This document shows positions 6,325 through 64,000 of a stretch of 64,000 nt of DNA, one piece after another. How positions within the stretch are numbered: position 1 is the first letter of the stretch; each line of letters starts with the position of its first letter. Location of the stretch: the sequence record NC_134264.1. One strand, given 5' to 3'. Both the position numbers and the translations under genes were made by a program. The notes beneath the pieces are model-generated. The model saw only the letters and a list, made by a program, of their open reading frames with translations. It did no database searches and had not been told where the DNA came from. This DNA comes from Escherichia phage Lindwurm.

Positions 6325-6353
6325 TTGCTTTTTACTGTATATATTGGTATAAT
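6325..6353 (+). promoter_or_regulatory. T5-type early promoter upstream of phoH
   Basis: TTGCTT-17 bp-TATAAT. Confidence 0.6.
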
Positions 6354-6426
6354 ATATTTGTAAGTTGATAAACAAGATCTTTTTGTTGATCCTCTGTTAG
6401 CGAAGTACACTATAGGAGTGTTATTT

Positions 6427-43096: not shown

Positions 43097-43687
43097 ATGA
43101 AAGTTAAATTCTGGTCAGACTTGCATCTAGACCACCCTGGAGCGTTACGTTTCCGTCCGTGGTTTAAGAACATGAAAGAGCACGATGAGTATATTCTAGA
43201 CACTTTGTCCAAGCATATTGGTAAACGAACAAAACTTATTTTGCTAGGAGATATTGCAGTAGGCCGTGAGGGACTGGCTAAATTAAAGTCAGTTATCCAC
43301 AATGTTCCTAATCAACTCATTATGGGTAATCATGATGCGGAACGTCAAGGACTGAGCATTAGGGACTTAGCAGAAGTTTATGATGATATTCAGGCTCTAG
43401 GTAAACAGACTGGAGGTGGCAAAAAGTTTTGGCTATCTCACTGCCCTTTGCATCCTAATGAACTTCGTGGCAAACTAAATATCCACGGACACGTACATAC
43501 TACTTCTTTACGTGATCCACGTTATATCAATGTCTCATTTGAAATGAGTAAAACTCCAATTCCACTAGAGGATATTGTGTCTGGTAAGTTTACTAGCTAT
43601 GATAGAGTAGTTAATTGTACTACCGGCGAAGTATTACAAATAGGGGAAGATGTAGCTGCTGTATTACGTGGTGATATAAATGTCTGA
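43097..43687 (+). CDS. metallophosphoesterase
   Basis: DLHLD, GDIAVG, GNHD and GHVH blocks. Confidence 0.65.
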   Translation: MKVKFWSDLHLDHPGALRFRPWFKNMKEHDEYILDTLSKHIGKRTKLILLGDIAVGREGLAKLKSVIHNVPNQLIMGNHDAERQGLSIRDLAEVYDDIQALGKQTGGGKKFWLSHCPLHPNELRGKLNIHGHVHTTSLRDPRYINVSFEMSKTPIPLEDIVSGKFTSYDRVVNCTTGEVLQIGEDVAAVLRGDINV

Positions 43688-50191: not shown

Positions 50192-50235
50192 ATTTCTAGG
50201 AGACATTTTTTGAAAACACTTTTCCAGAAATTACT

Positions 50236-50836
50236 GTCGGATTTGCACATTGTGTTTCTAGAAATTTATGGTCGGATTTGCACAATTGCCTAAGTTTTTA
50301 GGAACATATAATCTCCTGAAAATGGCAGCATTATTTCGGGCCGAAGGCCCATGATTGCCTGAGTTTTTAGAGCCACAAGAATTTTCACTTGTCAAGCTAT
50401 TTTGCCCCATTTTGCTAATAAAATTTTACTTTATCTCGCCCCAAGCCCAATTAACCTAAATTATCTCAACTCTTCCCCAAAAACGCAGCAAATCAGGCGT
50501 TGCACGCCACACATGCTGCCCCCCTAGCTTCTCCCCTAATTTTCTCTCGCTCTCTCAACTTCTCCCCAAATCCACACAACCCACACCCTCCAATCGAAGT
50601 CACAAAAATCTTGTCGGTTTCGCACATCTTAATCCTAGAAAAACCATGTCGGATTTGCACATACCCCACAGGATTCGAACGCAGTTCGAGATTGCTGGAG
50701 TTTTTGGGAAAACTCCTTGTCGGATTTGCACACTATAAAAATTTTTCGGGTCGGATTTGCACACTACCAAAAATTGTCGGATTCGCACATACACGCCCGC
50801 ACGTAACACCCGTGGAGCAATGTCGGTTTTGCACAA
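50236..50836 (+). repeat. eight dispersed copies of 14-mer GTCGG(A/T)TT(T/C)GCACA
   Basis: Copies at 50236, 50270, 50612, 50647, 50718, 50749, 50775 and 50821. Confidence 0.8.
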
Positions 50837-50838
50837 AA

Positions 50839-50860
50839 GCGCAGGGCAATTGCCCTGCGC
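50839..50860. repeat. perfect 22-bp palindrome GCGCAGGGCAATTGCCCTGCGC
   Basis: Read directly; self-complementary. Confidence 0.8.
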
Positions 50861-50867
50861 TAAATAC

Positions 50868-51040
50868 GAATGATAATAAGAATCAATCTCATTTAGAAAG
50901 TGGAATGAGAATGATAATAATTCGCATTTAGAAAATGAAATGAGAATCAATCTCATTTAAGAAGTGAAACGATTCTCATTTAGAAAGTGGAATGCAAATG
51001 ATAATGATTTGCATTTAAGAATGGAAGTGAGAAACACTGT
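50868..51040. repeat. array of AATGAGAAT / ATTCTCATT-type palindromic half-sites
   Basis: Repeated TCTCATTTAGAAAGTGGAATG and ATGCAAAT...ATTTGCAT units. Confidence 0.65.
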
Positions 51041-51048
51041 TATTTAAG

Positions 51049-51141
51049 TTATCCACAGACTTATTAACAGCACGATTTGACTTGACAAAATCCTAGCCAT
51101 TTTGAGGCGTTATCAACAGACTTATCCACAGCTTATCCTAC
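51049..51141 (+). promoter_or_regulatory. DnaA-box cluster
   Basis: Perfect TTATCCACA at 51049 and 51122; 8/9 TTATCAACA at 51110; 7/9 at 51133. Confidence 0.65.
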
Positions 51142-51158
51142 TGTATAAATATACAGTA
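51139..51158. promoter_or_regulatory. LexA (SOS) box-like palindrome
   Basis: TACTGTATAAATATACAGTA, 19/20 to consensus TACTGTATATATATACAGTA. Confidence 0.6.
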
Positions 51159-54759: not shown

Positions 54760-55023
54760 TTGTTCGGCCTCCTCGTTAATCGGTGAGTGAATGATAAAGG
54801 TAATTTTCTAGCATAGGCAAATATTATTTTACCTTTTTATTTTCCTTGCCTAGCGCCTATTTTTATGATAACCGCGCAGCGATGTAGTAAAGAGCAAAAC
54901 ACGGCGAAGCCACCAGGCCGTCGCATTGAGGCTTTGCTTTAATATTACCTAACAGCGTTTAGCTCGTTAGAACGCGATTTAGGCCGCTTAAAATTGATTG
55001 CAGTCGTTAACACTACCTTTTTA

Positions 55024-55043
55024 CCCTGTATATTTATACAGTA
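55024..55043. promoter_or_regulatory. LexA (SOS) box-like palindrome
   Basis: CCCTGTATATTTATACAGTA fits CTGT-N8-ACAG with AT-rich spacer. Confidence 0.55.
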
Positions 55044-55051
55044 GGATAACC

Positions 55052-55133
55052 TGTGGATAAGTCTGTGTAAAAGTCCTTATATTGCCGCCTATCGTGTCAA
55101 GTTATTTTGTGCTGTGGATAACATTGTGGATAA
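55052..55133 (-). promoter_or_regulatory. DnaA-box cluster
   Basis: Three perfect TGTGGATAA boxes at 55052, 55113 and 55125. Confidence 0.65.
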
Positions 55134-55174
55134 CTTAAATGATAGTGGTTCTCACTTAGGCCGATAGTTTCTTA

Positions 55175-55222
55175 TAGTTATTATTTACTGTAGTTATTAT
55201 TTATTATAATTATTATTTCTCA
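55175..55222 (+). repeat. three tandem 16-bp AT-rich iterons
   Basis: TAGTTATTATTTACTG / TAGTTATTATTTATTA / TAATTATTATTTCTCA. Confidence 0.65.
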
Positions 55223-55416
55223 TTAATTTATAGGTATATTATATATCATTAAATAGTTAGCTGGCTAATGAGATTTTCCGTGATTAATAGTCTGCTAATA
55301 ATTTAATCCGGTACAATCCACCAGCATGATTATCATCCTAGCAATTATTAGTCTGCTATCTTTCCGATACACACTAACAAATAAAAGTCAATTAATTTAT
55401 TTCATAAAATAAGTAG

Positions 55417-55502
55417 TTATCCACTGGAAAACAAAAGTCAAGTGGATAACTAGGAAAATTTCATTTTTGCTTTTGGGGATAAGTTATCAACAAGGCTAGA
55501 AT
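55417..55502. promoter_or_regulatory. additional imperfect DnaA boxes
   Basis: TTATCCACt at 55417, AGTGGATAA at 55441, TTATCAACA at 55494. Confidence 0.45.
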
Positions 55503-55895
55503 GCGCCTAAAACGCTCCAGAACGCGATAAAGTTTTTAGCCATCCCATCATAAGGGGATAAGCCGTTTATCGCTACCACGAGCTTTTTAGATTTTGTCAA
55601 GTAGGGCAAAGCAAATATAAATGAAAAAATTACTTGCCTATATGCTATGTTTTGTGGTATTCGCGCGCCCGTTTCTTTTAATTTTAGGCCGTCGCCGGAC
55701 GTGGTGCGGTGGATCGTGTCTTTACGTTTCTTTACAAAAATAAGGTTGCGCCATTTTTAGTATTTGCTATTATTTATCTCGTAGGGCGGCAATGACGAAC
55801 TACACGGCGGGAAGTTTACCGCCACGCTCTTTAAAAATTGGGTATATCTTAAAGCCTATCGGCGGTAAACTTATACATTATAAGGAATCGACGAT

Positions 55896-56099
55896 ATGAA
55901 ACAAACGCTTTTGATCACTGGCAAGCCTAGCAAGGCACTAGATAGCAAAACAAAAAATTTGTTGACAGTAGCGCAAAGATCGGTAAAATATCGATTTAAG
56001 CAATACAAGAAAGGCCGCCAGCAAGGTCTAGAAATGATCTGGCGAAACATTATGATTGACTTGAAAGAAAATCATAAAAAATCTCAAAAAATTGTTTGA
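55896..56099 (+). CDS. small basic hypothetical protein
   Basis: 67-aa ORF with AAGGAA RBS. Confidence 0.4.
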   Translation: MKQTLLITGKPSKALDSKTKNLLTVAQRSVKYRFKQYKKGRQQGLEMIWRNIMIDLKENHKKSQKIV

Positions 56100-56326
56100 C
56101 ACCCTAGCCGATAGGCTTTAAGATGTACCCAGTTCGATAAGAGCGATAACTTGATAAAATTTGACGGTCGGTGCTTACCATAATGCATCCCGCCCCCTAA
56201 CTGGGATATAGCGGCCTACGTGGAGTTCTTTAAATTGGTTAAACTGGCGAGCGGATTGTTACTTATTACCTGCTACTTTCTAGCAGGTAATGCGGAACAA
56301 TCCCCAAATAACTAGGAGTTTATACT

Positions 56327-60411: not shown

Positions 60412-60568
60412 TAATTAAAGTTGAAATAGTCACGGTGTGTAATGATAACATGCCGTGACTATTAGCTTGCTAAGTACCGGGCGGTAATGAGACTCATTCT
60501 CATCTGGGAGGCCACTGGACACACCTCCATGTGTAATCTTATGAAATTTGGCAAAAGTCAAATTAGCG

Positions 60569-60778
60569 CTATTTACGGACTGACTGCCTGAGAATGGACT
60601 GCCATAGAGGGTCAGTCTTAACAAGATTATTGATGTACTCAATAGCTTCATCAAATCTCATAAATCCTTCTGGGATTTCCGAAGACTTAGGAAAAACTGA
60701 GAGCATCTCCTGGGTGAGACCTCTCTTTTCAATTTCTTCCTTAGTTAATTTAAACTGCTCATAGTTATTCTTCACCAC
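60569..60778 (-). CDS. hypothetical protein
   Basis: 69-aa ORF. Confidence 0.4.
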   Translation of the reverse strand: MVKNNYEQFKLTKEEIEKRGLTQEMLSVFPKSSEIPEGFMRFDEAIEYINNLVKTDPLWQSILRQSVRK

Positions 60779-60989
60779 TCACCTTAGCCCGAAATCTCTT
60801 CCGCGACGCCCGAGATCCATCCGACCACTCCCGCTCAAACTCCGCACGTTTCTCGTCAAACTTCCGCTCCCTTTCCGCAATCTCCCGCGTCACCCCCGCA
60901 ATATATTCCCGATGCTTGTTAATTGCCGCAGTCGTCCCGAAAACTCCCGCGAGTATCCCGATAATAAAAGCAATTATAATACTAAACAT
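60765..60989 (-). CDS. small membrane protein
   Basis: 74 aa, N-terminal TM helix. Confidence 0.4.
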   Translation of the reverse strand: MFSIIIAFIIGILAGVFGTTAAINKHREYIAGVTREIAERERKFDEKRAEFEREWSDGSRASRKRFRAKVSGEE

Positions 60990-61398
60990 TATTTATATTC
61001 CCGCAACTTACGTTCAATACGAGCTAAGTGGTTATCCAAGACACACTGCCCTAGAATTACCACAACTAATAAAACAATAATTATTACTCCCATTAAATCC
61101 ACCCCGCCATAGCTGCTAACCAAAAACCTACGAAGATTAGGAATAATACAAAACCAAATCCGTAAATATTAATCCACGCTTCGTACACTTCTCCGCGTCT
61201 GTTCTTTCTTTTATTTGACATATCTTTCGTGCCCCCGTAAATGTGGTATTTTAAAATATTTTATAATTTGTGCATAACCAACCATGCTTGTGACTTCCTA
61301 GAAGGACTTCTACTTTTCTTACATAGTGGTTTCTGCCAATATACCATCCAAGAAATAAAAAATTTAGTTTACTTGGATGTCTTTTTGCTTTATACTAA

Positions 61399-61665
61399 TT
61401 ACAGGTAGTTAGATTGCTCTAGTTTAAATTTACAATCACCATATTTAAGGTCAAACTGACTGAGATCCCACCACCCAAACTTAGTACGGAGCTGTACTAC
61501 TGGGAAGCGATCTCCCTTAATACGAACTTTTTGAACCTTGAGACCGTAATGTTCTTCTCCCGCACCACCAAAAGATTTTACAAATCCCGTGCAAAATGGT
61601 TTGGGAGCAGGTGCACAACCAGATAACATAACTGCGGCAACTAGTGCAATAACAAACTTTTTCAT
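61399..61665 (-). CDS. llp: lipoprotein (Llp-like receptor-blocking lipoprotein)
   Basis: Lipobox MKKFVIALVAAVMLSGC; divergent from and adjacent to receptor-binding protein gene. Confidence 0.55.
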   Translation of the reverse strand: MKKFVIALVAAVMLSGCAPAPKPFCTGFVKSFGGAGEEHYGLKVQKVRIKGDRFPVVQLRTKFGWWDLSQFDLKYGDCKFKLEQSNYL

Positions 61666-61750
61666 ATTTATCTCTCCATTTCTAATTTATGAATCTATTA
61701 TAGCAAAATAGAGGGATGAAAGCAAATACATTTTTATAATAGGAGATTAT

Positions 61751-63508
61751 ATGGGTTTTTTCGCTGGAAAATATAGCGATGGTAAGACCGTACTATCTTT
61801 AAATACTGAATCTGGTGGTGACATTAATCGTCACTATAGTCCAAATAATAATAGTATTTTTCATAGTGATATGCCATTTGTCCTAGTTGATGGTACTTAT
61901 GAGGCTGGGTTAGGCGATGCCGGAAATGGGTTTTTTGTATGTCAGATGCCCTCTGACATAATAAATATTAAATCTAATGACCCAGGTAGAGTTATACTAA
62001 CTGCCATTGAGATTAATGGTACTCATAGGGCTTTTCTTAATGGTACTCAGAGTAAGGTGGGTCAAACTATAGTTGCCACTCAAGCAGACCCCTTTAGATC
62101 TTTTGCTAGCGTTTCCCAGACTAGTGGATTTGCATTTGGTAATAGCCTGGCATCTGGAACATATAACTATAACTCATCTATAGGTCATGAAGAATCTATC
62201 TCTAGAAACGGTACTGGTGGAACCACCCTACATAGCACTTATCATGGTATAGTTAGGCCAGGTGCAGGAGCTCCAGTAGGTATTACTGTTGCAGAAGCTT
62301 TTGCACAGCTGGGTTTTCCTACTAATAGTAGTACAGTACCCATAGATGGTAATAACCAATATTACTGGGACCCAGGATGGATGTCTCCTTTAGGATCAGC
62401 ATACAGAGGACACGATTGGTTTTATGTTTGTAGCTCTAACATACGTGGGTATGGTGGAGTAAGACAAGGTCTTCCTGGTAATGTAAACACTATGTATCAT
62501 GATGGGGGTAATAGATTTGTTTGTAGGGGTTCTACAACCAATTTAGCTAATCAATCTGGTAATGCTACAATATTACAGGATTGGTATAACATAACTCCTA
62601 CTAAGGTTATTTGGTACGTTTTGAATTTAAGATATTCTAATGGTAATATGGGTATCTCTGGTAATCCTTTTACTGGTTCAGATATTCTTATCTCTCCCTC
62701 TAATTTTACTATAAAAGGGGTTAGTCTTCCTAATACTGGGTATAAGTTTATTAACCAGAATGCTTTTGGTAACTTAGGTTATAGGCCAGATATGGAATAC
62801 GTCGGAAATAACGCAGCGTACACTGGAGCCTTCGGAGATACCACTGCAAGGTGTGAACTTGTAGGCTCTAGTAATGGAAGTTTATGGTCTCCTGTAGACT
62901 ATGGAGGGGCTAAGTCTCAAATTAGTATTTACAAATTCGGAGCAGGTAAGCAATGGTACGTAAACTCAAGTAATAACACTATTGGTAACGAACATGGTAT
63001 TGTTTGGGGGCCTTCTTCAGTTCCTCTGAGACTTTTTAGTGGAAATGTTGGTAGTTCTTACATGGGGGATGATATTACTCCTTACTATCCAGGAACTGGA
63101 GATAGATATGTGGCTTTATCTACTATTGGACTAGGAATTCCAGGAGGTAATGCTACCATTATTCTTACTACTGAAGTTATATCTGGTAATCTTAATTGTG
63201 CTGGTGTTCCAGCTAATACATGGAATAACGGTGTATTTCAGGTGCAGGGAAGAAGGGCTTATATCTATAGTAATGGAGATGCAATATTCCACCAGATTTT
63301 AACATTACCTGTAGGTTACTTAGTACCCTTTCATACTACATCTGCATTTAGATACACACCTAATAATGCACTAAGTAGAAATAGTTTCATATATACAGTT
63401 AAAAATCTAGGAAATGGAAATGTAGAGTTAGGGGTAGTTATGCACGTAAGTTTAGGTAGTGCAGTTTTCCTACCTAGATTAAGAGTAACAGTTCAACGCC
63501 TTACCTAA
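61751..63508 (+). CDS. oad: receptor-binding tail protein (pb5/Oad-like)
   Basis: 585-aa Gly/Asn/Ser/Thr-rich protein next to divergent lipoprotein gene; AGGAGA RBS. Confidence 0.5.
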
Positions 63509-63518
63509 AGGAGGAAAT

Positions 63519-64000
63519 ATGGCAAATGATGTATTAGTACCAGATCTTATGTCCCCTGAAGGGATGGATGTAATTGAAGCTTATTTACAGTGTGGCAGCG
63601 ATGTGCCTTCTGCCGCACGTAGTCTTGGGATGTCCGAAATTGCCTTCCGAGATATTATGAATCGTAGTGAAGTTAAGAACTACTTAAATGATATTTTTAT
63701 GGAGAGTGGATTCCGTAACAGAGATCGTTTGTTTGGTGTTCTAGATGAAGTTATCAAGCGTAAGCTGGAGGAACTAGAAGAAACCGGCATGGGTTCTGAC
63801 CAGGATATTATGGACATTCTCTGGAAGGCACACAAGATGAAGATGGAAGAAATGAAAATGATGGTAGAACTGGAGAAAGTGAAGGCAGCAGCCCGTACTC
63901 CAGCCAATCAGACCAACATCCAGAATAATATTATTGCTGGAGCTGGGGATCAAAACTACATGGACTTAATTACTTCCCTAGCTACTGGAGGTAAGAAGTA
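63519..64000 (+). CDS. terminase small subunit-like protein, N-terminal part
   Basis: AAGGAGG RBS; HTH-like region then coiled coil; runs off window end. Confidence 0.4.

What the first reader, a model, noticed from the sequence alone, without database searches (positions are those of the whole stretch)
54760..55895. oriC-like architecture: DnaA boxes flanking three AT-rich iterons
Within a 1.1 kb non-coding gap, three perfect TGTGGATAA boxes (55052, 55113, 55125) and three imperfect boxes (55417-55502) flank three tandem 16-bp AT-rich repeats (55175-55222) inside a very AT-rich stretch. This is the canonical layout of a DnaA-dependent origin (DnaA boxes plus an AT-rich unwinding element), or alternatively a DnaA sink.
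Basis: partly seen in the sequence, partly recalled or inferred. Interest (0 to 1): 0.7.

Follow-up and report, generated by a model that had tools for sequence, protein, structure and literature searches.

The report
Known T5 DnaA-box element, not origin
The DnaA boxes are real and strongly conserved, but they are the already-published "IRC-spacer-IRD" element in the first-injected terminal repeat of T5-like phages, more likely a docking site for host DnaA (and, as I newly note, LexA) than a replication origin.

Summary
The window is a T5-like phage (Tequintavirus). The gap 54760-55895 is the central untranslated region of the terminal repeat, between the divergent pre-early operons (gene 011-like leftward; hdi-A2-A1-dmp rightward).

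The three perfect boxes belong to a 132-bp element (55026-55157) with an inverted twin at 51025-51156. This is T5's published IRC-spacer-IRD / IRD'-spacer-IRC' pair. Davison (2020) already called it "reminiscent of oriC" and proposed that it halts DNA injection by binding membrane DnaA. No experiment has tested this.

The element and its four box slots are conserved in every relative examined, down to Vibrio phages. The 16-bp AT-rich "iterons" vary from 0 to 3+ copies. The second box cluster is one of two alleles and is absent from T5. Several oriC features fail: no GATC enrichment, no 13-mers, no IHF site, mirrored box/AT-rich order, no initiator gene nearby.

Two additions. The flank of the element is always the most meltable DNA of the locus. 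The element's invariant palindrome scores as a top-grade LexA/SOS box.

The feature is already known, its function is open, and the origin reading is weak.

The parts
54760..55895 (.). Central untranslated region of the terminal repeat (first-step-transfer DNA), between the divergent pre-early operons. It corresponds to T5 'Repeat Regions 2 + 1', which are contiguous here because this phage lacks the HNH gene insertion.
   Evidence: ORF list. 528 phage records match, and the records' coordinates of 4.5-6.4 kb place it in the left terminal repeat. T5 annotation and sequence. Davison 2020.
54770..54860 (-). Promoter region of the leftward pre-early operon (homologue of the T5 putative pre-early promoter T5P4, upstream of gene 011).
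   Evidence: Near-identical sequence to T5 6331-6420 by direct reading. Promoter-like hits at 54852-54823 and 54820-54791 on the minus strand. A promoter upstream of gene 011 was characterised experimentally in T5.
55026..55157 (+). 132-bp element, homologue of T5 IRC-spacer-IRD. Layout: LexA-like palindrome, box pair, ~40-bp spacer with conserved GTCAAG, box pair, conserved TTAAATGATAGTGGTTCTCACT.
   Evidence: Inverted repeat I1 with 51025-51156, 132 nt, 79% complementary. Found in both places in all 41 related loci that retain this region. Alignment of 61 unique copies. Column conservation.
55024..55043 (.). LexA/SOS-box-like palindrome CCCTGTATATTTATACAGTA (CTGT-N8-ACAG), the homologue of T5 'palindrome D' of the twin element.
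   Evidence: CTGT-N8-ACAG search. A weight matrix built from 7 E. coli LexA sites verified in K-12 sequence scores it 23.4. The E. coli sites score 19-26 and the maximum over 200 shuffles is 21.8. CTG-N10-CAG is kept in 25 of 30 unique copies at this position.
55052..55072 (-). DnaA-box pair A: slot 1 TTATCCACA (55052-55060, perfect) and slot 2 TTTTACACA (55064-55072, relaxed consensus), head-to-tail with a 3-bp gap.
   Evidence: Slot 1 is perfect in 24 of 30 relatives and slot 2 in 8 of 30. The geometry resembles E. coli DARS1 TGTGGATAA-cca-TGTGTATTA.
55113..55133 (-). DnaA-box pair B: slot 3 (55113-55121) and slot 4 (55125-55133), both perfect TTATCCACA here, with a 3-bp gap. It lies 61 bp start-to-start from pair A.
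   Evidence: Slot 3 is perfect in 17 of 30 and slot 4 in 23 of 30. The 61-bp spacing is kept in relatives including Klebsiella and Pantoea phages.
55160..55420 (.). Very AT-rich stretch. 55163-55263 is the least stable 100 bp of the 64-kb window.
   Evidence: In 33 of 33 distinct related loci the least stable 100 bp (at or above the 99.5th percentile) lies within 350 bp of this side of the element.
55173..55222 (+). Three tandem 16-bp AT-rich repeats (TAGTTATTATTTACTG and variants). This is a variable-number repeat, not conserved iterons.
   Evidence: Tandem Repeats Finder: period 16, 2.9 copies, 86%. Copy number is 0 in T5-type phages, 1-3 in others, with 31-nt units in some.
55415..55451 (.). 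Palindrome AGTTATCCACT-N15-AGTGGATAACT, two one-mismatch DnaA boxes facing each other. This is allele A of a dimorphic segment.
   Evidence: Present in about half of the relatives and replaced in T5-type phages by GTCTTGA...TCAAGAC. AGTTATCCACT is identical to the first DnaA-box 9-mer of the E. coli uvrB-upstream cluster with its flanks, but the gap there is 5 bp rather than 15.
55474..55492 (.). TGGGGATAA-G-TTATCAACA: two one-mismatch boxes in opposite orientation. Also part of allele A only.
51025..51156 (-). Inverted twin of the element (homologue of T5 IRD'-spacer-IRC', next to the injection-stop region). Boxes at 51049 (perfect), 51061 (TTATTAACA), 51110 (TTATCAACA) and 51122 (perfect), with a near-consensus LexA box at 51139-51158.
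   Evidence: weight-matrix score 28.3; CTG-N10-CAG kept in 31 of 31.
55896..56099 (+). hdi (T5 gene 008, host division inhibitor) homologue, the first gene of the rightward pre-early operon. Strong promoter-like sites lie at 55962-55989 and 56096-56124 (homologues of T5P2 and T5P1).
   Evidence: Pfam DUF7416 / phrog_4718. Promoter scan. T5 annotation. Two experimentally characterised T5 promoters overlap hdi.

Best explanation
The finding is the T5-family 'IRC-spacer-IRD' element together with its AT-rich flank. It sits in the untranslated centre of the terminal repeat, which is the only phage DNA inside the cell during first-step transfer.

I think it is a docking module for host DNA-binding proteins. 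Each of its two box pairs has a strong DnaA box (TTATCCACA) with a weaker box 3 bp away, head-to-tail. This is a geometry that, in E. coli DnaA-regulatory sites, supports cooperative DnaA oligomers. A LexA-type palindrome lies at the outer end of the element.

A second copy in inverted orientation lies 3.9 kb away, next to the point where injection pauses. Inferred mechanism: host DnaA, and probably LexA, load on both copies as the DNA enters. Because DnaA oligomers are polar, inverted arrays become co-oriented in a U-shaped loop. The two copies can then be bridged or anchored (for example to membrane-associated DnaA) into a nucleoprotein complex. That complex would organise the first-step DNA and contribute to the pause, or to its release by A1/A2.

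Shown here: identity with the T5 element, non-random boxes, conservation, geometry, and LexA-box quality. Inferred: actual DnaA/LexA occupancy, looping, and any role in the injection pause. The element is probably not the replication origin.
For: **Identity.** The region lies in the terminal repeat of a T5-like phage. A 132-nt inverted twin is present. This matches Davison's description of paired boxes 3 bp apart with a fixed spacer and a twin near the injection stop signal.

**Non-randomness.** 6 perfect boxes against 0.61 expected, five of them in the two elements. 36 boxes with at most one mismatch against 19 expected, clustered.

**Selection on the boxes.**
- The outer slots 1 and 4 are perfect in 18-25 of about 30 unique copies, while the inner slots turn over among DnaA-like variants.
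- The spacer is less conserved: 0.76 against 0.95-0.96 column conservation.

**Depth of conservation.** Klebsiella, Pantoea, Proteus and Vibrio Demerecviridae (A1 protein 74-32% identical) all keep two clusters of perfect boxes on opposite strands of the pre-early region. One cluster is always in the gap upstream of A2.

**Geometry precedent.** The E. coli DnaA-box cluster upstream of uvrB (DARS1 from memory, not annotated in the record) reads TGTGGATAA-cca-TGTGTATTA, against the window's TGTGGATAA-gtc-TGTGTAAAA. In datA, box 2 is preceded 3 bp upstream by a degenerate 9-mer.

**LexA box.** Weight-matrix scores of 23.4 and 28.3 equal or exceed verified E. coli sites. The positions conserved out to Vibrio phages are CTGTAT...ATACAG, with a variable centre.

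**Link of this copy to injection.** Davison cites Rhoades (1979) for a minor first-step fragment of about 5.8 kb, close to this element in T5.
Against: - No experiment shows DnaA or LexA binding, or any phenotype. Two recent papers say so explicitly.
- Binding of cytoplasmic proteins to DNA that has already entered does not obviously stop further entry.
- This copy lies 3.9 kb inside the stop point.
- The LexA palindrome of this copy is damaged (TTG...) in 5 of 30 relatives.
- A T5-like phage is recorded with host DH5a. That strain is recA1 to my knowledge, so LexA cleavage would not be essential for growth.
- The conserved non-box parts of the element (GTCAAG, TTAAATGATAGTGGTTCTCACT) are unexplained and could bind a phage protein such as A2.
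- The conserved, extremely meltable flank is not required by a pure docking model and fits an unwinding function better.
Confidence: 0.4

Rival explanations
1. Replication origin, or one of several: host DnaA loads on the box arrays and opens the adjacent AT-rich DNA, giving T5 replication proteins a start site. After circularisation through the terminal repeats there would be one copy per genome.
For: - A DnaA-box cluster lies next to the least stable DNA of the 64-kb window.
- This adjacency is conserved in 33 of 33 loci even though the repeat sequence is not.
- The two inverted arrays flanking 1.6-3.9 kb resemble bipartite bacterial origins (my knowledge, not tested).
Against: - Electron microscopy placed T5 origins internally and found several of them (Bourguignon 1976, Everett, as cited).
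- The strand bias is equally explained by rolling-circle or nick-primed synthesis (inference).
- The 16-bp repeats vary from 0 to 3+ copies.
- The gap has one GATC, no 13-mers and no IHF site.
- The box/AT-rich order is mirrored relative to oriC R1-DUE.
- No initiator gene is adjacent.
- T5 encodes its own candidate initiator helicase D2.
- The AT-rich flank is also where homing-endonuclease genes and promoters sit.
Confidence: 0.15
2. Transcriptional control region: DnaA and LexA act as repressors, activators or roadblocks for the divergent pre-early promoters. For example, they could shut down or time the gene 011-017 operon, which is bracketed by the two elements.
For: - The element lies about 200 bp upstream of the leftward promoter, and its twin lies just past the end of that operon.
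- A promoter-like site, TTAACA-16-TATATT at 55007-55034, overlaps the LexA palindrome, the classical SOS operator layout.
- E. coli uvrB is co-regulated by LexA and DnaA sites (abstract of PMC6015884).
- Pre-early transcription is shut off after about 5 min.
Against: - The -35 of the overlapping promoter-like site is not conserved in T5 (direct reading).
- The characterised T5 pre-early promoters lie elsewhere, overlapping hdi and upstream of gene 011.
- The promoter scan finds only about twice the shuffle expectation (14 against 7.6).
- Shut-off depends on phage A1.
Confidence: 0.2
3. The motifs are recognised by a phage protein, for example the A2 DNA-binding dimer or A1/A2. Their resemblance to host DnaA and LexA sites is then incidental or only partly relevant, and the pair of elements marks where A1/A2 act to restart transfer or to join the repeats.
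For: - A2 is a DNA-binding dimer required for second-step transfer, and phrog_1725 annotates it as a DNA-binding protein.
- Conserved parts of the element are neither DnaA nor LexA motifs.
- The element co-occurs with A1/A2 in all Demerecviridae checked.
Against: - The strong slots match the host high-affinity 9-mer exactly, and their variants stay within DnaA-like sequences.
- The palindrome conserves exactly the LexA-critical positions while its centre varies.
- The pause occurs without phage protein synthesis.
Confidence: 0.12
4. Conserved boundary sequences of a hypervariable gene cassette: the two elements persist because recombination between phages exchanges the poorly conserved genes between them. 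The AT-rich repeat is a neutral slippage and homing hotspot.
For: - The distance between the twins varies from 1.6 to 3.9 kb with different gene content.
- HNH genes are inserted beside the AT-rich stretch, with co-varying flanks.
Against: This does not explain why the conserved sequence consists of perfect host DnaA boxes and a LexA box. It also does not explain why the same motifs recur in Vibrio and Proteus phages without detectable DNA homology of the surroundings.
Confidence: 0.05

Closest known systems
Bacteriophage T5 IRC-spacer-IRD (Repeat Region 2) and its twin IRD'-spacer-IRC' (Repeat Region 3, injection-stop-signal region). Sources: Heusterspreute et al. 1987 and Wang et al. 2005 (as cited), and Davison 2020, bioRxiv 10.1101/866236.
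   Same: - Same position in the terminal repeat.
- Same 131-132-bp element with an inverted twin.
- Same four DnaA/DnaA* boxes in two pairs with 3-bp gaps.
- Same palindrome D.
- 84% identical to the T5 copy.
   Different: - This phage has all four slots within the relaxed DnaA consensus, three of them perfect, whereas T5 lost one.
- It lacks the HNH gene insertion.
- It carries a three-copy AT-rich repeat.
- It has an extra allele-specific cluster of four one-mismatch boxes, which Davison's text does not mention.
E. coli oriC (DnaA-oligomerisation region plus duplex-unwinding element)
   Same: Several high- and low-affinity DnaA boxes in head-to-tail arrays beside very AT-rich DNA.
   Different: - Box spacing is 3 bp, whereas it is 2 bp within oriC arrays (my knowledge).
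- No GATC-rich 13-mers, one GATC, no IHF consensus, mirrored box/AT-rich order.
- Variable AT-rich repeat.
- Two inverted copies kilobases apart.
E. coli datA and DARS1 (non-origin DnaA-box clusters that inactivate or reactivate DnaA)
   Same: A strong box and a weak box in head-to-tail pairs with a 3-bp gap. The E. coli uvrB-upstream cluster (DARS1 from memory) reads TGTGGATAA-cca-TGTGTATTA, and in datA TTGTAAACA-gag-TTATCCACA. In datA all essential boxes share one direction.
   Different: - No IHF site between the pairs, and 61 bp rather than 162 bp between the strong boxes.
- No inverted box I 5 bp from the strong box, as in the DARS core.
- The palindromic pair at 55415-55451 has a 15-bp gap.
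- I could not verify that the degenerate datA 9-mer is the published 'box 7'.
LexA (SOS) operators of Gammaproteobacteria, for example recA, sulA and umuDC; also the uvrB control region, where LexA and DnaA sites coexist
   Same: CTGT-N8-ACAG with an AT-rich centre. Weight-matrix scores (23.4 and 28.3) lie in or above the range of verified E. coli operators.
   Different: - Not demonstrably placed over a conserved promoter.
- Located in a virulent phage.
- Duplicated in inverted orientation next to DnaA boxes.

Membership tests
T5-family IRC-spacer-IRD DnaA-box element | Lies in the untranslated region of the terminal repeat, between the divergent pre-early operons. | tested here: met
   Matches map to 4.5-6.4 kb of records that start at the left end, and some records show two places. 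Flanking genes are gene 011-like, hdi, A2, A1 and dmp.
T5-family IRC-spacer-IRD DnaA-box element | A ~131-bp element with an inverted twin near the first-step/second-step boundary. | tested here: met
   Arms 51025-51156 and 55026-55157, 132 nt, 79% complementary. Both copies are found in all 41 related loci that retain this region.
T5-family IRC-spacer-IRD DnaA-box element | Four DnaA/DnaA* boxes in two pairs, 3 bp apart within a pair, with a fixed spacer between the arms. | tested here: met
   Boxes at 55052/55064 and 55113/55125. The 61-bp start-to-start distance between pairs is constant in relatives. 52 bp separate slot 1 from slot 3 by direct reading.
T5-family IRC-spacer-IRD DnaA-box element | Functions in the injection stop by binding DnaA. 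| not testable with these tools
   This is a hypothesis only, and papers from 2023 and 2026 state that experiments are lacking.
oriC-type DnaA-dependent origin | A cluster of high- and low-affinity DnaA boxes. | tested here: met
oriC-type DnaA-dependent origin | An adjacent AT-rich duplex-unwinding element. | tested here: inconclusive
   The least stable DNA of the window, and of 33 of 33 related loci, lies next to the element. Its repeats are not conserved, and AT-richness alone also marks promoters.
oriC-type DnaA-dependent origin | Conserved 13-mer repeats (GATCTnTTnTTTT) and GATC enrichment. | tested here: not met
   One GATC in 1.1 kb against a window density of 3.6 per kb, and no 13-mer.
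oriC-type DnaA-dependent origin | Box orientation relative to the unwinding element as in oriC (13-mers, then TGTGGATAA on the same strand), plus an IHF site. | tested here: not met
   The window has TGTGGATAA followed by the AT-rich DNA, which is the mirror image of the oriC order. No IHF consensus in the gap.
oriC-type DnaA-dependent origin | Replication starts here. | not testable with these tools
   The literature conflicts: internal multiple origins against a strand bias suggesting replication from one end.
Iteron-type plasmid/phage origin | Conserved direct repeats bound by an adjacent Rep/initiator gene product. | tested here: not met
   The repeats vary from 0 to 3+ copies. The flanking proteins are DUF7566 and Hdi, and no initiator family is hit.
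datA-type DnaA-inactivating site | High-affinity boxes in one direction with an IHF site between them at an optimised distance. | tested here: not met
   The boxes share one direction, but there is no IHF consensus and the spacing is 61 bp against 162 bp. Definition taken.
DARS-type DnaA-reactivating site | A core of box I (inverted), a short gap, box II, 3 bp, box III. | tested here: not met
   A II-III-like pair is present at 55052-55072 without an inverted box I. The inverted pair at 55415-55451 has a 15-bp gap, against 5 bp in the E. coli uvrB-upstream cluster (DARS1 from memory), and no box III.
LexA (SOS) operator | A CTGT-N8-ACAG palindrome scoring like known operators. | tested here: met
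   Conservation, and in distant phages.
LexA (SOS) operator | Overlaps a promoter that it represses, and is bound by LexA. | tested here: inconclusive
   A promoter-like TTAACA-16-TATATT overlaps it in this phage, but the -35 is not conserved in T5. LexA binding is not testable here.

The most novel reading that the evidence does not exclude
The element is a composite sensor of host-chromosome destruction. LexA and DnaA sites sit side by side at both ends of the variable pre-early operon. Phage A1 degrades the host DNA, which would cause LexA to be cleaved and DnaA to be released from its ~300 chromosomal sites. The element would then switch from LexA-bound to DnaA-oligomer-bound and open the adjacent, extremely meltable DNA. 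That switch would time the next stage of infection, either restart of DNA transfer or the first round of replication. A virulent phage would thus read two host master regulators as a clock.
Probability: 0.1. Interest if true: 0.8.

Novelty: already known. Interest (0 to 1): 0.4.

Why it matters
Why T5 stops injecting after 8% of its genome has been an open question for about 60 years. The only concrete molecular proposal, DnaA boxes as the stop signal, rests on these elements and has not been tested.

For a scan, the practical result is that this 'oriC-like' hit is a published feature of T5-like phages and should not be reported as a new origin.

This analysis adds three testable handles:
- The boxes persist down to Vibrio phages.
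- The element carries a top-grade LexA box that the held literature does not mention.
- Its flank is invariably the most meltable DNA of the locus, although the repeats there are not conserved.

These point to simple experiments (ChIP, box mutants, dnaA/lexA hosts, marker frequency) that could separate docking, timing and origin models.

Tried and rejected
- **Rfam and tRNA scans.** Nothing in the gap.
- **oriC hallmarks.** IHF consensus absent from the gap. GATC and 13-mers absent.
- **Lone perfect box at 43293 with an IHF-like site 9 bp away.** It lies inside a 196-aa ORF and was dismissed as chance.
- **Promoter over the LexA palindrome.** Present as a consensus match here but its -35 is not conserved in T5, so I did not build on it.
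- **TTGACA-like motif in the spacer as a promoter.** No usable -10 in either copy (direct reading).
- **datA 'box 7' equivalence.** I could not confirm the position of box 7 from the held papers, so it is kept only as a sequence observation.
- **Covariation test.** I fetched three A1-bearing phages of Alphaproteobacteria, whose LexA motif differs. Their A1 genes sit in replication modules without a first-step layout, so the test does not apply.
- **Primary papers.** Bourguignon 1976 and Davison 2015 are not held, so origin mapping is cited second-hand.
- **Second box cluster as a DARS core.** The spacing does not fit.
- **LexA cleavage as an obligatory trigger.** Unlikely, because a T5-like phage is recorded on DH5a, which is recA1 to my knowledge.
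Full report
**What the window is.** The 1.9 kb around the finding matches 528 phage records. Almost all are T5-like phages of Escherichia, Salmonella and Klebsiella, and the best is 92.9% identical. The matches map to 4.5-6.4 kb of records that begin at the left genome end, on the opposite strand. The window therefore runs in reverse orientation through the terminal repeat, which is the "first-step-transfer" (FST) DNA carrying the pre-early genes.

The gap 54760-55895 separates two divergent operons. The leftward one starts with a DUF7566 protein, the gene 011 homologue. The rightward one encodes Hdi (DUF7416), a DUF7177 protein, the A2 DNA-binding protein, the A1 "DNA transfer protein" and Dmp. 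None of these is a replication initiator. A 21-gene tRNA cluster further left also fits T5.

**Checking the observation.**
- Perfect TTATCCACA occurs 6 times in 64 kb against 0.61 expected. Three are at 55052, 55113 and 55125.
- A fourth box, TTTTACACA at 55064, fits the relaxed consensus.
- Four one-mismatch boxes lie at 55417, 55441, 55474 and 55484. Boxes with at most one mismatch number 36 against 19 expected.
- The 16-bp repeat is confirmed at 55173-55218, 2.9 copies, 86% matches.
- 55163-55263 is the least stable 100 bp of the whole window, about 4 sd from the mean.

**What the first cluster is.** The three perfect boxes belong to a 132-bp element (55026-55157) whose reverse complement lies at 51025-51156, 79% complementary. 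The T5 record annotates the homologous pieces as inverted repeats C and D, with C' and D' plus "palindrome D" near the 7.9% nick.

Davison's 2020 preprint describes exactly this. IRC-spacer-IRD lies in "Repeat Region 2" and IRD'-spacer-IRC' in "Repeat Region 3". Together they hold eight DnaA or DnaA-like boxes in pairs separated by 3 bp, with a constant spacer, "reminiscent of oriC". He proposes that they stop injection by binding membrane-associated DnaA. He also argues that a replication role is unlikely, because T5 origins were mapped near the genome centre and replication genes are not yet in the cell. Papers from 2023 and 2026 state that no experiment has tested these boxes and that the mechanism of second-step transfer is still poorly understood. 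The core of the finding is therefore a rediscovery.

**Conservation.** I collected 40 loci through the A2 protein (66-100% identity). The element occurs twice, in inverted orientation, in every locus that retains the region. The two copies are 1.6-3.9 kb apart.

The table summarises an alignment of 61 unique copies.

| Feature | This copy (30 unique) | Twin (31 unique) | Column conservation |
|---|---|---|---|
| Slot 1 perfect | 24 | 18 | 0.95 |
| Slot 2 perfect | 8 | 7 | 0.84 |
| Slot 3 perfect | 17 | 0 | 0.88 |
| Slot 4 perfect | 23 | 25 | 0.96 |
| Central spacer | - | - | 0.76 |

The inner slots turn over among DnaA-like variants such as TTTTACACA, TTATCAACA and TTATTAACA.

I then went beyond the T5-like genera using the A1 protein. 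Klebsiella, Pantoea, Proteus and two Vibrio Demerecviridae (A1 74-32% identical) each keep 2-5 perfect boxes in about 16 kb, in two clusters on opposite strands. One cluster is always in the gap upstream of A2. The boxes themselves are what is conserved.

**What is not conserved.** The AT-rich 16-mers are absent from T5-type phages, single in some, double or triple in others, and replaced by 31-nt units in a few.

The second box cluster (55415-55492) is one of two alleles of a ~110-bp segment. T5 and about half of the relatives carry a different sequence there, with a GTCTTGA...TCAAGAC palindrome and TTGTTAA repeats. Davison's text does not mention this cluster. In T5-type phages an HNH endonuclease gene is inserted between the element and this segment.

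One property is nevertheless conserved. In 33 of 33 distinct loci the least stable 100 bp of the 10-16 kb locus (at or above the 99.5th percentile) lies within 350 bp of the same side of this element.

**Testing the oriC comparison.**
- E. coli oriC has its three GATC-containing 13-mers followed by TGTGGATAA (R1) on the same strand. The phage has TGTGGATAA followed by the AT-rich DNA, which is the mirror image.
- The gap has one GATC, against a window density of 3.6 per kb.
- There is no IHF consensus and no conserved repeat.
- The box gap is 3 bp. That geometry is found in non-origin DnaA sites. The DnaA-box cluster upstream of E. coli uvrB, which I take from memory to be the DARS1 core (the record does not annotate it), reads TGTGGATAA-cca-TGTGTATTA, against the window's TGTGGATAA-gtc-TGTGTAAAA. 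In datA, box 2 is preceded 3 bp upstream by a degenerate 9-mer.
- The defining layouts of datA (IHF site, 162-bp spacing) and of the DARS core (inverted box I at 5 bp) are not met either.

**A new observation: a LexA box.** The invariant palindrome at the outer end of each element is CTGT-N8-ACAG with an AT-rich centre. That is the form of the gammaproteobacterial LexA operator; PMC2994835 gives the consensus as CTG-N10-CAG.

I verified seven E. coli LexA sites in K-12 sequence and built a weight matrix from them.
- The twin's site TACTGTATAAATATACAGTA scores 28.3.
- This copy's site CCCTGTATATTTATACAGTA scores 23.4.
- The E. coli sites score 19-26 in sample and 13.5-24 in leave-one-out.
- The best of 200 shuffled windows scores 21.8.

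The distant phages carry two or three such sites beside their DnaA boxes. The letters conserved are CTGTAT...ATACAG, while the centre varies. CTG-N10-CAG is kept in 31 of 31 twin copies and 25 of 30 copies at this position.

Davison's text calls this palD and does not mention LexA. No paper listed by the library searches that paired LexA with T5-like terms contains both. The older subscription papers are not held, so priority cannot be excluded.

**How it most likely works.** Shown here: identity with the T5 element, selection on host-type DnaA boxes and on a LexA-type palindrome, a fixed geometry, inverted duplication, and a conserved meltable flank.

Inferred: host DnaA, and probably LexA, load on both copies as the DNA enters. 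DnaA oligomers are polar, and a U-shaped loop makes inverted arrays co-oriented. The two copies could therefore be bridged or anchored into one complex that organises the first-step DNA and contributes to the pause or its release. Davison's citation of a minor first-step fragment of about 5.8 kb, close to this copy in T5, fits a pause at this element.

I put about 0.4 on this class of explanation. Within it, identity with the T5 element is near-certain, and real DnaA binding has roughly two-in-three odds.

**Rivals.**
[quoted passage not shown] That study conflicts with the older electron microscopy.
- **Control of the divergent pre-early promoters, about 0.2.** This is plausible from position. 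However, the only promoter-like site over the palindrome is not conserved in T5.
- **A phage protein such as A2 as the true ligand, about 0.12.**
- **Mere cassette boundaries, about 0.05.**

A strict requirement for LexA cleavage is unlikely. A T5-like phage is recorded on DH5a, which is recA1 to my knowledge.

**Verdict.** The origin interpretation is only partly supported. The feature is already known, and this phage is one more carrier of it. It is of moderate interest because the function is an old open question, and because the LexA-box and meltability observations sharpen the experiments that would settle it.

Noticed in passing
window 51139-51158 and 55024-55043; also L045-L049: The invariant 'palindrome D' beside the DnaA boxes scores as a near-consensus LexA/SOS box (28.3 and 23.4, against 19-26 for verified E. 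coli operators). It recurs next to DnaA boxes in Klebsiella, Pantoea, Proteus and Vibrio Demerecviridae. It is not mentioned in the held T5 literature.
   Followed up: yes
window 55413-55500 against L002 (T5) and other loci: A ~110-bp segment exists as two sharply different alleles across T5-like phages. Allele A carries DnaA-like boxes (a TTATCCACT palindrome plus TGGGGATAAGTTATCAACA). Allele B carries a GTCTTGA...TCAAGAC palindrome plus TTGTTAA repeats. The alleles are only loosely linked to presence of the HNH gene. This may reflect alternative protein-binding specificities or co-conversion by homing.
   Followed up: partly
window 55160-55300, relative to L002-L004, L008, L013, L016, L023, L026, L030: In T5-type phages an HNH homing-endonuclease gene with its own promoter is inserted in the AT-rich stretch. 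In all but one of them (L023) the 16-bp repeats are deleted as well, so the AT-rich flank is an insertion hotspot.
   Followed up: partly
window 50228-50835: There are eight copies of TGTCGGATTTGCACA (T5 'direct repeat D'), plus AT-rich palindromic 25-75-nt repeats at 50852-51049 next to the twin element. This is the presumed injection-stop region and its function is unknown.
   Followed up: no
window 55825-55863 and 56107-56145: A 39-nt inverted repeat (85% complementary) brackets hdi (T5 inverted repeats A'/A). One arm overlaps the strong promoter-like site 56096-56124.
   Followed up: no
window 55327-55413: A possible 28-codon ORF with a hydrophobic start (MIIILAIISLLSF...) lies inside the gap in allele-A phages. 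It has no obvious ribosome-binding site and is probably not a gene.
   Followed up: no
L055, L056, L057 (Rhizobium and Sphingobium phages): A1 ('DNA transfer protein') homologues in phages of Alphaproteobacteria sit inside replication modules, next to DnaB-like helicase, primase, ligase and DNA polymerase genes. This hints that A1's ancestral role is in DNA metabolism rather than DNA transfer.
   Followed up: no
window ~60450-64000: Past dmp the sequence continues into genes that in relatives lie at the right end of the unique region (receptor-binding protein side). The source record is therefore probably a circularly collapsed assembly with a single copy of the terminal repeat.
   Followed up: partly
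window 43293-43322: The only perfect DnaA box outside the two elements lies 9 bp from an IHF-consensus match. Both are inside a 196-aa ORF, so this is probably chance.
   Followed up: yes
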